A DNA stretch of 64,000 bases, from the NCBI GenBank assembly GCA_026770705.1, contig JANJGN010000034.1, forward strand, positions 6,820,001-6,884,000, given 5' to 3'. The position numbers are program-made. Source of the DNA: Isurus oxyrinchus. Taxonomy: Eukaryota. Position 1 is the stretch's first letter. Every line of letters begins with the position of its first letter. Of the stretch, positions 18,001 through 45,000 are shown one piece after another.

Positions 18001-21000
18001 TTGTGTACAATCAGAAAGTTAAGAAGGAATGGAACTGGATGCATCACCCATTATTGAAAAAGTCACCGGATACGATAATGGCAAACTCAATCGAGTCAAC
18101 ACTTCAAGATCCTCCTTTCTAACATCTGAGGCCGAAAGCAAATCTTGAGAGACCTTTCTCGCAGACTGGTTAAGCAACGGCCTGACATAGTTGCACTCGC
18201 AGCATCGTACACAGGAGACAATCTCCCAGGCACCAACATCACCATCCGTGGGCATGCCCTGTGCCACCGTCCGGACGGACTGAGCAGAGGTGAGCACCGT
18301 AATATACAGTTTTTAGGCAATTGCCTAGGGGGCCCTCAACACCCACTCCAGACCACCTGAATTTGCACACTGTCAGGTTAAATATTGGCAAGGAAATCGC
18401 CCGCTGATAACCACGTTATGCCCTCCCTTTCATACTAAACCATCACTTTTCCATCTTGAACATGACATGGAGGAAACAACGAGGCTGGCAGTGACACGGA
18501 ATGAGCTCTGGATTGTTGACTTCAATGCCTATCAGCAATAGAGACTCGGTAACACTGCTGCAGACTGAGCAGGTGGAGTCCCAAAGAATATATCTGCAAG
18601 AGTTGTCTGTGGCAGGTGGTGAGGGAACCAAGAAAGGGGAAAAAGTCCAATTTGACAAGATATTCAGCAGCCTGCCAGCCGCAGATACAACTGTCCATGA
18701 AAATGTCGGTAGGAGTGACCATCACGCAGTTATTGGGGAGAGGAAGCCCCATCTTCACATTGGGGATATGGTGCATCGCGTCGTGTGGCACCAGCACCGA
18801 TGTTAAATGGGATTTATTTATAACTTACCTATCAACTAAAAACCGGGAGAACAGGAGGCTCATGGGACGTCAGCAGTAGCAGATTTGTGTTGAGCCACCA
18901 TTTGTAAACTCATGGCCCGACATATGTAGAACTCCCCCATTAATGCCATGGCAGATGATCAACCCTGTTTAAATGAAGACTGAAAGAGGGTCTGTCTGGA
19001 GATGCATCAGGCATACTTAAAAAGGAGGCATCCAATTGCTCAAACTACAACAGAAGGCTACTTTCCTCCCAAACAGCATACAAATCAATACGTCGACATT
19101 ATTAAGCAATTCAATGACATACAGATCAAATTTACCCTCTACAGTACGGCCAGATCAATTCGTCAATGCTGGTGGACAATTGAGGAACTTACAGGAGGGA
19201 GAGTCTCCATGAGTCACTCAGCTCCCGACCTCATCACAGCTTCTCTTTCAAAATAGGCAAAAGAGATGAACTCAATGATGTGAGAGTGACTGCTCTTGAT
19301 GTCGTCAGTGCTTGGCCGAGTGCAACATCAAGAATCCCTAACAAAATTGGACCAATGAGAATCGGTGGTCGGGGGTGGGGGGGGAGGTGGGGGACCTCCA
19401 CTCTTTGTAGCAATACCTGTCAGAAAAGGAAGATGGCTGTAGTTGCTGGAAATTAATAACTTCAACAGCAGGACATCACGAAAAGTGATCCTCGGGTTAG
19501 TACCCCAGGACCAACCATTTTCCGTTGCTTCATCAATGCTCTTCCTTCCATCATAAGGTTAGAAATGGCGACCTTCGCTTACAATTGCACGCATATCAGC
19601 AGTGTTTGGATCTCCTCAAAGATTGACGTTGTCCAGGTTGAAATGCAGCACGAAATGGAAATTATCAATGCTTGGAGTAACCAGTGGAAAGTAATGTTCT
19701 TGCCACGCATGTGCCGGGCAATGACCATCTCCAGCAAGACAGAATCTAACCATCTCCGCTTGAATTTCATAGGCATTGCTATTGGTATGTCCACCACAAT
19801 CAACATCCTGGGGCTACCATAGGCCAATAACTGAATGGGACTAGCCATATCAATACTCCAAGATCAGGTCAGTGTGTAGAAACCCTGAGGTGGGTAATTC
19901 ACCTCTTGTCTCCCAAAGTCTGTCCAACATCTACAAGATACAATTAGGTGCCTGATGGAATAGTCTCCATTTGCCTCGATAAGTGTAGCTCCAACTGTGC
20001 TAAAAGAAGCTGGAGGCCATCCAGGGCAAAGCTGCCTGCTTGATTGCCACCTCATCCAGCAGCATATACTCCCTCCACCACCGACGCTCAGTTGCAGCAG
20101 CGAATACCAATGCAAGACGCACTGCAAGAACCCCCAAGCCTCCTTGAACAGCATCTTGCAAACCCACGAACATTACCATCTAGAAGAGCAAGGGCCGCAG
20201 AGGATGGTTCTGTTGCAAATGCGAAATTGTTTGGCACTATTTTGGAACAGAATAAGCCATTAAATCCCAAAAATGTTCAGCTTTTTCCACGAGGTCATGA
20301 ATGGTCTGTGTCCTTAACAATAGTTAAGAATATGTGACCATGCATGTTATCTTTAGATAACAAAACCTTTCATTTTAAATGTTTTTCAAGTTAATTTAAA
20401 ACAAACCAGACAATTGCTTATGCAAGACGTTTCACCATTGTGCTGATGATAAAATTAGAATGATATGATTGTGTTGATGAAAGAATAGGCAATGAAAATT
20501 ACTGTGGCTTTCCAAAATATCAGTGAAAAGAGCGATATCGATAAATTGTGATGGGAATTGTTATGGCGATGTTAGGCATGTTAATGAATAGAATGATGAG
20601 CATTTTCGTTATCCGTATCTTCATAATTCTATTCACAATAACAAAACTTTGCTTTATTTAATTGACAAAGAAAATGTTCTAATACAGAAAATCATTTAAC
20701 ATTCAGCCTCAGATGTAATTGCAAACCTGGGTGCGGGAAATGAGCTGTTCCTGTGATCAGAATATCTGGGTTGTATTAATGGTTTCGTTCTGTCTCATTT
20801 CAGAGCTGGATAATGCCAAGAAAGCTTCAGATGGCTCAGGTTATCATGCATTAAATGTTAATGGAAAGGAAAATAGCCTTGTCCAATGTTGCTCAATCTG
20901 AATTATAACTGGGTTAACATTCATAAGTTTTTGTTGATGCCGATGCAAATTACTTTTGGGCTGGGCATATAAATTATCCCCTTTACTCTCTTGCCCAAAG

Positions 21001-42000: not shown

Positions 42001-45000
42001 CGAAATAAAAACCAGAGATTGCTGATACAAACCAAAACTCAGCAATCTTGTAGTATCTGTGGAGTTCGAATGGGAATGAAAGCTTCCAATACAACATGCT
42101 CCTTCGGAACTGAAGGGAGGTATAAATCTTGTGTCTATTATGCTGTTGTTAGCGGAAGAAGTAAGTAGAGCCAAAGATGTGTGCATTATGTTGGAGGGCG
42201 GGAATAGATCAACAACGAGCGGGCATGCAACAAAAGCGAAAGGGAGTGTAGAAACAAAACATTCAGCCCGAGTGGTTGTGCATAGTTAAATAATAAATAA
42301 ATCCCATAGTATTTCTAAAATTTAGGGATGAGTTACTATAAATTAAGGATCAGTTCTGAATCAACGGATAGAGGTGAAATTGGTGAAGGTTTGCAGCCAC
42401 ACGGCAATTGGCACAACTATTTATGGAAATAAGCCGTTGTGTACCTCATAAGATGATCTGAATGGAAAAGAATGGTGGGAAAATGGACGATCGGAAAAAG
42501 AAAACTTCCAGCATAGAATGACAGCCACATCAAAATTCAGTGGTGAATATCTCAGGGAAATGGGATAAAGTTGTGAAAGCAGCAAGCAGTTACAATCACC
42601 GAGGTGGACATTGCTTCCAGGTAATGCAACCGCATAATGGAAGATACGCCATGGATTATTATCCGTCCTGGTCAACATCAATTGTCAGCATAAATTGGTG
42701 CATAATTTCATTATGTTTTTGGAACATTGTTGTGCGTATATTGTGTGCCCAATTTTATCATTACAATAGTGAGTGAGATTCGAACTCAATTCATTAACTG
42801 TTAATTATTTTGAGAAACAGACTCTATAAATGTCAGTTAAACCATTCGACCTTAGAACAATGGAAAACACTTATTTTCGCAAAAGTGGAGAGAGTCATGT
42901 GAATTTCGTGAATTCTGTCGAAATAAAATAGTTGCTCTTTCGGTCTTGCAGAACACAATAAATGCCAAGAAACTTTGAAAGATTTAGGTAAGAAAAGCGT
43001 ACTTTTCAATACCAACCTCTTACAGAGCTAATCGCAAATTAGAGCCGCTAAAAATTAGTGACTAAATGTTCTTCTGTTGCAAATAGAACAGCAACATCCA
43101 AACTTTGTGTAGTGGTCAGGAACACAGGAACTTAAGAGAAGTAGCAGGCCATCCAAGCCATCGAGGCTGCTGTGCCTTCAAGTGAACATGGCGGATAGAC
43201 CAAGTCAAAGCCAGTTTGCCGCTCTATCCCCGTATCCCTTGATGCCATTAATGTCCAGAAATCAATCAATCTCTGTCCTAACCATACTACATGACTGAGC
43301 TTACACAACCCCTGTGGCAGAAAATTCAAAGATTCTCAAACTTATGAGTAAAGAAATATGTTCTCACCTCAATCCTAATTGGCTTTCTTTCTGACTCTCA
43401 AAACATGTCTACTGGCTCCAGATCGTATCTTATCTACCTAGTACCTTAAAAATCCTTTTTTATTAATTAAATCACCTCTCATTCGTTTCCACACTGCAAT
43501 ATCTCTCCTCATAGGACATTCCCGCCATTCCAAGAATTAATCTGGTGAACCTCGGCTGCACTATCTCAATGAGAAGTACATTTTCCCTTTGGAAAGGCGG
43601 CCAAAGCTGTGTACCTTATTGCAGGTGCAACTGAACAAACGTTCCATGCAATTGAAGTATAACATTCCCTTGAGATAAAGAACAACAAACTACTGGCTTT
43701 CCTAATTACACATCGAGCCTGCGTGTCAATTTTCAGTGACGTATGAACAGGGACATCCACAACACATTGGACATCAGCAGTTCCCAATATATCACGACTT
43801 AAAAAAATACTTTGCCCTTCCGTTCCTCGTAACAAAGTGGATAACCTCTCACAACTTCCCACATTATACTATATCTGCTCAATTCTTCCCCACTCACTAA
43901 GCCTGTCTAAATCCTCTGGAATCCTCTTTGTATCCTCCTCTCAACAAAATTCCCACCTAAGTTTATCTCAGCTGAAAATGTGAAAATATTGCAGCCCATA
44001 TCCACATACAGACCACTGATCTCGACTTTGAATAGTCGGGTCCCAAGCATGGATAATCTCAGTACCCCATTAGTCGCAACATCCAACATGAAAGTTACTC
44101 ATTTATTCTTTCTCTTTGTTTTCTGTCCGTTAATAAATCCATATTGCATGCAAAATTGTTACTCACCTATCTCTTGGTATCTGATTTTGCTTACTTTCCT
44201 GGGTCGGGAATCTGAAAATCCAAAATTACCGCAGTCATGGTCTCCCGCCTTTAGAATAGAATATAATGCTTTATGTTTCACGGCAGAATACTGCCTTCGC
44301 TCTTTTCTCTCTCCCTCCCTTCTTAAATAGTGCACTTATATTTGCAACTTACCAAACTGAAGGAACTATTCCATAAATTAGACAATTTTAATTGATGATC
44401 AGGTAGGCATCCGATTTCTAGAAATCCACCTGTTTTAACGTTCAGTGATGTCGATCATCCATCAAGGGGGTATTTATAATCTTCCTCTCACATTGACTTC
44501 TACAGTGCTATTTTTTTTTCGAATGCTGACGTTTTTCACATCCTCATTCCCACATGTTTCTTGCCCTTCTGTTATTTCCAGAATGTTTTTTGCATCATCC
44601 TCCAGGAAGGCAGACACCAATAAATAATTTAGCTTCGCTGTCATTTCCCTATTCTTCCTTTTAAATTCTCCTCAGTCAACGTCTAAACTATACACATTTT
44701 TCGAGGAAGATCTTTATTTTTTTTTACATACCCCTAGAAGGTTTTGCTGTCCGTGTTTATCTTTCTTGCTCGTTAATATTCATATTGAATTCTAAAATTC
44801 TTTATCGGTTTCTTGGTCCCCCTTCTCGGTATTCTAAAATTCTCCCAAACCTCAGTTTTACTACATTTTTTGGAACATTTGTAAACACCCTCTTTTGACC
44901 TAATGCATTTTCGCATTCCATCGTGACAGCTGTTTAATCACTTTGACTGCTGCTTTTTTTGTGCCATAATGGAATTTAAATTTGTTCCAAAACAAAGAAT

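What the first reader, a model, noticed from the sequence alone, without database searches (positions are those of the whole stretch)
20205..44200. Coiled-coil length extended by ~8.4-kb tandem duplications carrying one 63-nt exon pair
Seen: three collinear units start at ~20205, ~28620 and ~37020. Units 1 and 2 each contain one 36-nt and one 27-nt exon (or pseudo-exon) among shared TE fossils, so under 1% of each unit is coding. Inference: unequal crossing-over adds three heptads per step without breaking frame or register. Exons A-C look like older rounds whose introns no longer align by eye. Unit copy number may vary between individuals or species.
Basis: partly seen in the sequence, partly recalled or inferred. 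Interest (0 to 1): 0.65.

Follow-up and report, generated by a model that had tools for sequence, protein, structure and literature searches.

The report
Old tandem repeat carrying coiled-coil micro-exons
An 8.4-kb piece of a gene has been copied head-to-tail three times, carrying tiny 36- and 27-base exons that appear to encode three-heptad modules of a coiled-coil rod, but the copies are very old, partly decayed and unlikely to vary in number today.

Summary
The dot-plot observation holds. Three direct, collinear units lie at 20239-28654, 28655-37084 and 37085-44143. All 18 of 18 intra-array matches are on the + strand, and none matches the rest of the window. The units are old: K2P 0.35 (u1-u2) and 0.45-0.46 (to u3), with a longest shared exact word of 24 nt.

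The + strand carries a family of phase-1/1 micro-exons, seven of 36 nt and four to five of 27 nt, from 11142 to 60002. A 36+27 pair gives 21 residues with apolar a/d positions in continuous heptad register.

Each full unit holds two 36-nt exons and one 27-nt exon, not one of each. Unit 2's 27-nt copy has no GT donor. Unit 3 has lost the first 36-nt exon in a ~0.9-kb deletion and has no detectable 27-nt exon.

Within the array the exons are barely better conserved than intron. Older paralogues keep 52 % exon identity against random-level flanks.

Verdict: a real, ordinary intragenic segmental duplication of coiled-coil modules, followed by decay. Present-day copy-number polymorphism by unequal crossing-over is unlikely.

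The parts
20239..28654 (+). Tandem unit 1 (8416 nt)
   Evidence: Self-BLASTN: 20239-21561, 22389-23585, 23667-26750, 26831-27544 and 28443-28575 match unit 2 collinearly at 67-73 %.
28655..37084 (+). Tandem unit 2 (8430 nt). Relative to unit 1 it carries ~1.3 kb of extra sequence between 34791 and 36114, partly shared with unit 3.
   Evidence: K2P to unit 1 is 0.351.
37085..44143 (+). Tandem unit 3. It is the oldest copy, has an internal ~0.9-kb deletion, and has no detectable tail.
   Evidence: u1 20273-20402 and u2 28691-28826 both match 37085-37222, then u1 21301 aligns to 37231. The last match is u2 35359 to 44143. K2P is 0.464 and 0.447 to units 1 and 2.
11142..11168 (+).
   Evidence: AG/GT-bounded, phase 1/1. 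BLASTN match to 16908-16960 at E=3.7e-5.
14618..14653 (+). 36-nt family exon outside the array
   Evidence: Splice scores 3.7/6.9. A profile built from it and 59967 returns the five in-array 36-nt exons as its top five non-self hits.
16931..16957 (+). 27-nt family exon outside the array
   Evidence: A profile built from it and 11142 has 26888-26929 as its top non-self hit, E=0.026.
20804..20839 (+). Unit 1 exon 36a. It is splice-competent, but its second half has lost the apolar a/d residues.
   Evidence: 32/36 identical to the unit 2 copy, in the top 4.3 % of intron windows, P=0.014.
21266..21292 (+). Possible dead 27-nt partner of 36a. It is in phase and open and is followed by GT, but has no AG or pyrimidine tract upstream.
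   Evidence: The similarity (18/27) is at a level also reached by minus-strand controls, so support is contextual only.
21387..22400 (+). Sense-oriented LINE-like ORF2 fossil in unit 1. Homologous stretches lie in unit 2 (from 29808) and unit 3 (37323 to about 38430). It includes the most conserved island of the unit, 21300-21460.
   Evidence: The island is 0.90-0.95 identical between u1 and u2. The open frame runs past the apparent 27-nt 'exon' at 21406-21432. In unit 3 the pieces lie in three reading frames, and no open segment exceeds 60 codons between 37.3 and 38.4 kb. The identification rests on recalled motifs; Pfam gave 0 hits.
26154..26189 (+). Unit 1 exon 36b
   Evidence: It aligns with 34200 and 42952 with conserved AG and GT.
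26898..26924 (+). Unit 1 exon 27b
   Evidence: Acceptor score 12.0, donor score 4.1.
29261..29296 (+). Unit 2 exon 36a
34200..34235 (+). Unit 2 exon 36b
36179..36205 (+). Unit 2 copy of exon 27b without a GT donor (pseudo-exon)
   Evidence: Alignment A1: 23/27 identical to unit 1, with TT at the donor position.
42952..42987 (+). Unit 3 exon 36b, with the best splice scores of the family
   Evidence: Acceptor 7.4, donor 8.9. Frame 2 is the only open frame.
55071..55097 (+). Tentative 27-nt family exon
   Evidence: Good acceptor and donor context. Only 10-14/27 identical to the other 27-nt exons.
59967..60002 (+). 36-nt family exon downstream of the array, closest to the 36b copies
   Evidence: BLASTN 59940-60019 against 42924-43005 at E=2.8e-7. 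Profile of the 36b trio: E=1.8e-4. 23-25/36 identical to the 36b copies.

Best explanation
The window lies inside a + strand gene whose coding sequence here consists only of alternating 36-nt and 27-nt micro-exons. Every one of them starts with the last two bases of a codon and ends with the first base of the next. One 36+27 pair encodes 21 residues, that is three heptads of an alpha-helical coiled coil. Leu sits at the a positions, and Cys, Ala or Leu at the d positions.

The rod was lengthened by repeated duplication of genomic segments carrying such exons. The last two rounds copied an ~8.4-kb segment. First unit 3 split from the ancestor of units 1 and 2, then units 1 and 2 split from each other. 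That segment already held two modules: a, whose 27-nt exon was already dead, and b.

The duplications are ancient. Since then the copies have decayed as introns do, and several exon copies have been lost (a donor mutated, a module deleted, a partner missing). The array is now a fixed, diverged relic rather than an active length-variable repeat.

Shown here: the array, its age order, the exon family, its phase and its a/d periodicity. Inferred: that the exons are spliced and translated, that the product is a coiled coil, and that unequal crossing-over was the mechanism.
For: Array: 18 of 18 intra-array HSPs are collinear and on the + strand, and none leads outside the array.

Age order: K2P is 0.351 against 0.464 and 0.447. 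Three-way sites are u1=u2 738, u1=u3 415, u2=u3 456.

Exon family: a scan with the same rules on both strands gives the family only on the + strand. Frame 2 is the only frame open in every 36-nt member. Leave-out profiles recover the other members as top hits: the profile from the two out-of-array 36-nt exons returns the five in-array ones as ranks 1-5 (E 0.0023-0.19), and the 36b trio finds 59967 at E=1.8e-4. Paralogues not related by the 8.4-kb duplication keep 0.52 identity in the exon, 0.46-0.60 at the splice signals and 0.25-0.27 in the remaining flanks. Sixteen of 17 36-nt pairs reach the 99th percentile of random AG-N36-GT pairs.

Heptads: apolar residues occupy positions 2, 5, 9 and 12 of the 36-nt exons in 6/7, 7/7, 5/7 and 4/7 members. 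They occupy positions 4 and 7 of the 27-nt exons in 4/4 and 4/4. Positions 6 and 10 are 0/7 apolar. A strict 27/36 alternation keeps a and d in one register.
Against: There is no transcript, protein or cross-species evidence.

No external homology search was possible. Each exon encodes 8-12 residues, below the 20-residue minimum of the tools, and the joined model was deliberately not made.

Within the array, four of five exon comparisons are no better conserved than 15-28 % of intron windows. Module b shows 21 non-synonymous against 1 synonymous changed codons.

The family was partly ascertained by a peptide pattern, which inflates the identity figures.

If every splice-competent exon is used, the register shifts three times.

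No other domain of the gene was found: Pfam gave 0 hits at its curated cut-off in 10 longer + strand candidates.
Confidence: 0.65

Rival explanations
1. The duplicated exons are used alternatively (mutually exclusive or cassette exons) rather than additively. The array would then diversify the rod, for example a hinge-like 36a variant against a canonical 36b, without lengthening it.
For: 36a and 36b have the same length and phase and are paralogous. Using all of them breaks the heptad register, and leaving out 36a (and unit 2's 36b) restores it. 36a is the best-conserved exon between units 1 and 2: 32/36 identical, with 2 synonymous and 1 non-synonymous changed codons. Tandem exon duplication commonly gives substitution-type isoforms (PMC8373072; search listing and abstract only).
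Against: There are no expression data. Outside the array the exons alternate 27/36 as expected for additive modules. No competing RNA structures or other splicing-choice signals were looked for.
Confidence: 0.17
2. The array is a neutral segmental duplication of non-coding DNA. The 'exons' within it are dead pseudo-exons or chance AG...GT segments, and any real gene no longer uses them.
For: Exon conservation within the array is close to that of intron. Changes are almost all non-synonymous. One donor is lost, one module is deleted and one possible partner lacks an acceptor. Relic-level matches without splice signals are as frequent on the minus strand (39 against 26 and 16 against 21).
Against: Six of 7 in-array family copies keep AG and GT after K2P 0.35-0.46 of divergence. 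Core a/d positions take 4 of the 22 non-synonymous codon changes. The family is strand-specific and phase-consistent, and its exons are far more similar than their flanks in older paralogues.
Confidence: 0.15
3. The dot-plot pattern comes from independent insertions of the same transposable element, not from duplication of a host segment.
For: A LINE-like fossil (recognised by recalled motifs) lies in all three units.
Against: The matches cover 5000-5850 reliably aligned sites per pair, in one order and orientation, with a constant ~8.4-kb period. They include sequence on both sides of the fossil and the host exons. No array sequence recurs elsewhere in the 64 kb.
Confidence: 0.02

Closest known systems
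LPA kringle IV type 2 repeat (intragenic 5.5-5.6-kb tandem unit)
   Same: It is a kilobase-scale tandem unit inside a gene, mostly intron. Each copy adds a protein module in frame, so the number of units sets protein length (PMC6314250 and PMC11515395, abstracts only; 'two exons per unit' was a search term and was not read in the text).
   Different: KIV-2 copies are nearly identical and highly copy-number polymorphic. Here the units differ by 28-34 %, share no exact word longer than 24 nt and include dead exon copies. The module here is a 21-residue coiled-coil piece split over two micro-exons, not a kringle.
Coiled-coil stalks or necks of type II C-type lectin receptors (CD23/FCER2; CLEC4M neck VNTR)
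   Same: The stalk is an alpha-helical coiled coil with a heptad a/d pattern, built from short repeated modules (CD23: PMC6791321, passages read; CLEC4M neck VNTR: PMC3261175, abstract only). That the CD23 repeats are 21 residues long and each encoded by one 63-nt exon is recalled, not found in a call.
   Different: No transmembrane or lectin-domain exon was found in the window. According to the listing abstract of PMC11945572, the CLEC4M repeats lie inside one exon (exon 4) and vary between people. Here each module is split 36+27 nt, the copies are old, and Cys occupies two of the three d positions. Membership could not be tested.
Tandem exon duplication giving substitution-type (mutually exclusive) isoforms
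   Same: Neighbouring paralogous exons of equal length and phase, here 36a and 36b. Literature: PMC8373072, abstract only.
   Different: Here whole multi-exon genomic units of 8.4 kb are repeated, and the exon order outside the array suggests additive modules. Splicing was not observed.

Membership tests
Intragenic tandem segmental duplication | Direct, collinear, abutting copies with a constant period | tested here: met
   18 of 18 intra-array HSPs are + strand and collinear, with offsets 8416 and 8394 nt.
Intragenic tandem segmental duplication | Not explained by dispersed repeats | tested here: met
   None of the 22 HSP pairs at E<=1e-3 links the array to the rest of the window.
Intragenic tandem segmental duplication | Duplicated exons are symmetric (same phase, length a multiple of 3), so copies stay in frame | tested here: met
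   All family exons are 36 or 27 nt and open in the frame that starts at base 3.
Alpha-helical coiled coil (heptad repeat) | Apolar residues at a and d with 3-4 spacing, continuous over several heptads | tested here: met
   Column counts per exon and register arithmetic from exon lengths. Done exon by exon without joining.
Alpha-helical coiled coil (heptad repeat) | Predicted or observed continuous helix or oligomer for the spliced product | not tested
   This needs the joined exon model, which was left out. Single exons (8-12 residues) are below the tools' minimum length.
Copy-number-variable intragenic repeat (KIV-2 or VNTR type) | Near-identical units that can misalign and recombine | tested here: not met
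   Identity is 66-72 %, K2P 0.35-0.46, and the longest shared exact word is 24, 22 and 17 nt.
Type II C-type lectin receptor with coiled-coil stalk (CD23-like) | Transmembrane and C-type lectin domain exons in the same gene | tested here: inconclusive
   Pfam gave no family at its curated cut-off in 10 longer + strand splice-bounded candidates. The gene clearly extends beyond the window.
Type II C-type lectin receptor with coiled-coil stalk (CD23-like) | Sequence homology of the stalk repeats | not testable with these tools
   The exons are too short for any protein search, the protein databases were closed, and the joined model was not made.
LINE retrotransposon fossil (content of the units) | Recognisable reverse-transcriptase domain | tested here: not met
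   Pfam gave 0 hits in 10 as-is segments of unit 3 and none in the flanking LINE-like segments. The Atlas gave no usable hit. The resemblance rests on recalled motifs only.

The most novel reading that the evidence does not exclude
The window shows part of an undescribed rod or stalk protein. Its coiled coil is encoded entirely by alternating 36/27-nt micro-exons, and Cys sits at two of the three d positions of each 21-residue module. That pattern would suit an extracellular stalk stapled by inter-chain disulfides. Its length would evolve by birth and death of kilobase-scale genomic modules. The conserved but heptad-breaking 36a exons would serve as programmed register shifts, hinges or alternative exons.
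Probability: 0.15. Interest if true: 0.55.

Novelty: new member of a known kind. Interest (0 to 1): 0.33.

Why it matters
If the exons are real, this is a clean example of how symmetric micro-exons let a coiled-coil rod grow in exact three-heptad steps by segmental duplication. It also shows what happens afterwards: the copies decay, lose splice sites and may break the register. It corrects the expectation that such an array should be copy-number variable, because units that differ by about 30 % cannot misalign. For annotation, it flags a run of 27/36-nt exons spread over at least 49 kb (11142-60002) that standard gene finders tend to miss.

Tried and rejected
I then used only stop-free segments by reference. 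Forty segments gave no family at curated cut-off, and the few sub-threshold names (E 0.027-0.22) are noise.

2. The Atlas look-alike search on the 57-residue open segment of unit 3 gave no usable hit.

3. Rfam at gathering score gave 0 matches and the tRNA scan gave 0.

4. tblastn of 650 stop-free array segments against the rest of the window gave only noise-level matches, the best at E=2.8e-5 before correction for 650 queries. TE families shared between the array and its surroundings were therefore not shown.

5. The apparent 27-nt 'exon' at 21406-21432 lies in the most conserved island but is rejected as an exon. It has an A-rich acceptor and a weak donor, unit 3 has no GT there, and the frame stays open past the donor in all three units.

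6. A scan for exon relics without splice signals was rejected as evidence, because the minus strand gives similar numbers.

7. The idea that 16931 and its surroundings form a 'unit 0' of the same array is rejected. There is no flank similarity, and the exon is only 14-15/27 identical to the 27b copies.

8. The idea that 55071 is unit 3's displaced 27b is rejected for the same reasons.

9. Literature searches for this 36+27-nt architecture, or for shark tandem exon duplication in a coiled-coil gene, found nothing specific.
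Full report
**Observation.** The window has no N, is 38-47 % G+C and has the look of intron-rich eukaryotic DNA. No ORF exceeds 183 codons, there are no Rfam matches at gathering score and no tRNAs. I do not take it for human.

Self-BLASTN shows three direct, collinear units: unit 1 at 20239-28654, unit 2 at 28655-37084 and unit 3 at 37085-44143. All 18 of 18 intra-array HSPs are on the + strand and in the same order. None of the 22 HSP pairs at E<=1e-3 connects the array with the rest of the window.

**Age and order.** Over reliably aligned sites, identity is 72.0 % (u1-u2, 5849 sites), 65.6 % (u1-u3, 5178) and 66.5 % (u2-u3, 5029). 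K2P distances are 0.351, 0.464 and 0.447. At three-way sites, u1=u2 occurs 738 times, against 415 and 456 for the other pairings. So unit 3 split first, and units 1 and 2 split later.

Each unit has its own large gaps. Unit 3 lacks u1 20402-21301. Unit 2 lacks most of u1 21561-22389. Unit 1 lacks about 1.3 kb that is present at u2 34791-36114 and partly shared with unit 3. Nothing to the right of 44143 matches the unit tails. The longest exact words shared between units are 24, 22 and 17 nt.

**Exons.** A splice-site and ORF scan with identical rules on both strands finds a family only on the + strand.
- 36-nt members: 14618-14653, 20804-20839 (u1 36a), 26154-26189 (u1 36b), 29261-29296 (u2 36a), 34200-34235 (u2 36b), 42952-42987 (u3 36b) and 59967-60002.
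- 27-nt members: 11142-11168, 16931-16957 and 26898-26924 (u1 27b).
- The unit 2 copy of 27b, 36179-36205, is 23/27 identical to unit 1 but has TT at the donor.
- A further 27-nt candidate at 55071-55097 has good splice context but is only 10-14/27 identical to the others, so it is tentative.

All members begin with two bases of a split codon and end with one. That frame is the only one open in every 36-nt member.

Each full unit therefore carries two 36-nt exons and one 27-nt exon, not one of each. This is 99 nt or 1.18 % of the unit, or 63 nt and 0.75 % for the 36b+27b pair.

**Are they real?**
- *Within the array, the evidence is weak.* Compared with all same-length windows of the pairwise alignments, 36a is in the top 4.3 % (32/36; binomial P=0.014). 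36b is only in the top 22-28 %, and 27b in the top 15.5 %. Changed codons are 2 synonymous and 1 non-synonymous in 36a. In module b they are 1 synonymous and 21 non-synonymous, over four non-independent comparisons.
- *Between older paralogues, the evidence is strong.* For pairs not related by the 8.4-kb duplication, ungapped identity anchored on the exon is 0.52 in the exon, 0.46 in the 20 nt upstream, 0.54-0.60 in the 8 nt downstream and 0.25-0.27 in the remaining 100-nt flanks. The null for random AG-N36-GT pairs is 9.4/36, and 16 of 17 36-nt pairs reach its 99th percentile.
- *Ascertainment check.* Because I found some members by a peptide pattern, these figures are inflated, so I also ran leave-out profiles. 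A profile from the two out-of-array 36-nt exons ranks the five in-array 36-nt exons 1-5 among non-self hits (E 0.0023-0.19). The 36b trio finds 59967 at E=1.8e-4 and then the two 36a copies. The two upstream 27-nt exons find 26898 first (E=0.026).
- *Independent BLASTN matches.* 59940-60019 matches 42924-43005 at E=2.8e-7, and 16908-16960 matches 11121-11171 at E=3.7e-5.

**Heptads.** Counting the split codon as residue 1, apolar residues fill positions 2, 5, 9 and 12 of the 36-nt exons in 6/7, 7/7, 5/7 and 4/7 members. Positions 6 and 10 are 0/7 apolar. In the 27-nt exons, positions 4 and 7 are apolar in 4/4 and 4/4, namely Leu in 4 of 4 and Cys in 4 of 4. Position 5 of the 36-nt exons is Cys in 4 members and Ala in 3.

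From exon lengths alone, a strict 27/36 alternation keeps a and d in a single register. Including a 36a exon, or placing two 36-nt exons next to each other, shifts the register by 5. The misses at positions 9 and 12 come mainly from the two 36a copies, which carry Ser there.

The heptad argument rests on per-exon columns and arithmetic. Because single exons encode 8-12 residues, below every protein tool's minimum, no external homology search of the exons was possible. Gene identity stays unknown. Ten longer + strand splice-bounded candidates, searched one by one, gave no Pfam family at cut-off.

**Other content of the units.** The most conserved island of the unit (u1 about 21300-21460, 0.90-0.95 identical to unit 2) contains an AG-N27-GT segment at 21406-21432 that a reader could take for the 27-nt exon. 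Its acceptor is A-rich and its donor weak. Unit 3 has no GT there, and the frame stays open beyond the 'donor' in all three units (30, 40 and 57 codons).

By recalled motifs, this and the following ~1 kb are a sense-oriented LINE ORF2 fossil shared by the three units. In unit 3 the recognisable pieces lie in three reading frames, so there are several frameshifts as well as many stops, and no open segment exceeds 60 codons between 37.3 and 38.4 kb. No tool confirmed this, so 'shared TE fossils' is plausible but unverified.

A possible dead partner of 36a lies at 21266-21292. It is in phase and open, is followed by GT, and has no acceptor. Its similarity (18/27) is no better than minus-strand controls. 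If it is real, the ancestral unit held two 36+27 modules.

**Mechanism.** The best reading is in-frame lengthening of a coiled-coil rod by duplication of genomic segments that carry symmetric micro-exon pairs, in several rounds. The last two rounds produced the 8.4-kb array. Long neutral decay and partial loss followed: of nine expected exon copies, six are splice-competent, one has lost its donor and two are absent.

Whether the first duplication arose by unequal crossing-over between dispersed repeats cannot be told, since no repeat marks the unit boundaries. With 28-34 % divergence and no exact word longer than 24 nt, the units no longer offer a substrate for homologous misalignment. Polymorphic copy number is therefore unlikely, while differences between distantly related species remain possible.

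Rivals are alternative rather than additive use of the duplicated exons, and dead pseudo-exons in a neutral duplication.

**Comparison with known systems.** This works like the LPA KIV-2 array, an intragenic 5.5-5.6-kb unit whose copy number sets protein length (PMC6314250 and PMC11515395, abstracts). It also resembles the modular coiled-coil necks of C-type lectin receptors (CD23: PMC6791321, passages; CLEC4M VNTR: PMC3261175, abstract). It fails the defining feature of a variable repeat, which is near-identical units, and no lectin or membrane exon was seen. That CD23's repeats are 21 residues long and each encoded by one 63-nt exon is my recollection, not a result. Substitution-type use of tandemly duplicated exons is documented in PMC8373072 (abstract). 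Supplementary files were not consulted.

**Verdict.** The repeat is real and the micro-exon family is probably real. The 'three heptads per step' idea is right in principle for the 36b+27b pair. The array itself is an old, partly degenerate relic and an ordinary kind of event: a new member of a known kind, of modest interest.

Noticed in passing
window 18100-20200 (+), 45700-49000 (both strands): LINE-like reverse-transcriptase fossils, recognised by recalled motifs, with Pfam negative. They share short DNA matches: 19511-19568 with 48096-48039 (84 %, inverted), an inverted pair 48015-48265 with 48780-48529, 47768-47856 with 56819-56907, and 46527-46599 with 59042-59114. One fossil abuts the left edge of the array.
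   Followed up: partly
window 3100-5450 (-): Open segments of 84-118 codons on the minus strand. One carries what looks, from recall, like a polymerase active-site motif of an LTR-type or similar retroelement. Pfam gave no hit for the three segments tested.
   Followed up: partly
window 1500-2510: A G-rich stretch (C-rich on the other strand) with overlapping open frames of 103-146 codons on both strands, Gly/Arg-rich on + and Pro/Thr-rich on -. It looks like low-complexity or repeat-derived sequence rather than a gene.
   Followed up: no
window 26767-26805, 31539-31582, 35379-35441: Short G-rich or C-rich tandem tracts inside the units. The G-rich tract of unit 1 and the C-rich tract of unit 2 match each other in inverted orientation (35383-34 with 26803-26752, 75 %). 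Both lie just upstream of the 27b exon region, where units 1 and 2 differ by ~1.3 kb.
   Followed up: no
window 13563-13598 and 17054-17089 (+): Two in-phase open 36-nt stretches that resemble the 36b exons (22/36 and 21/36) but lack AG and GT. They may be dead family exons, but such scores also occur on the minus strand (weak profile hits at 13567-13594).
   Followed up: partly
window 60291-60317 (+): An AG-N27-GT segment in family phase, 288 nt after exon 59967, with a weak acceptor (-0.4) and donor 4.1. It could be the 27-nt partner of 59967, but its residues fit the family poorly. The weak match to the 55071 region has E=2.4.
   Followed up: partly
window 33156-33713 (-), 25103-25685 (-): Homologous minus-strand open segments inside units 2 (186 codons) and 1 (106 + 89 codons). 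These are long for 28 %-diverged neutral DNA. Pfam gave no hit, and their origin is unexplained.
   Followed up: partly
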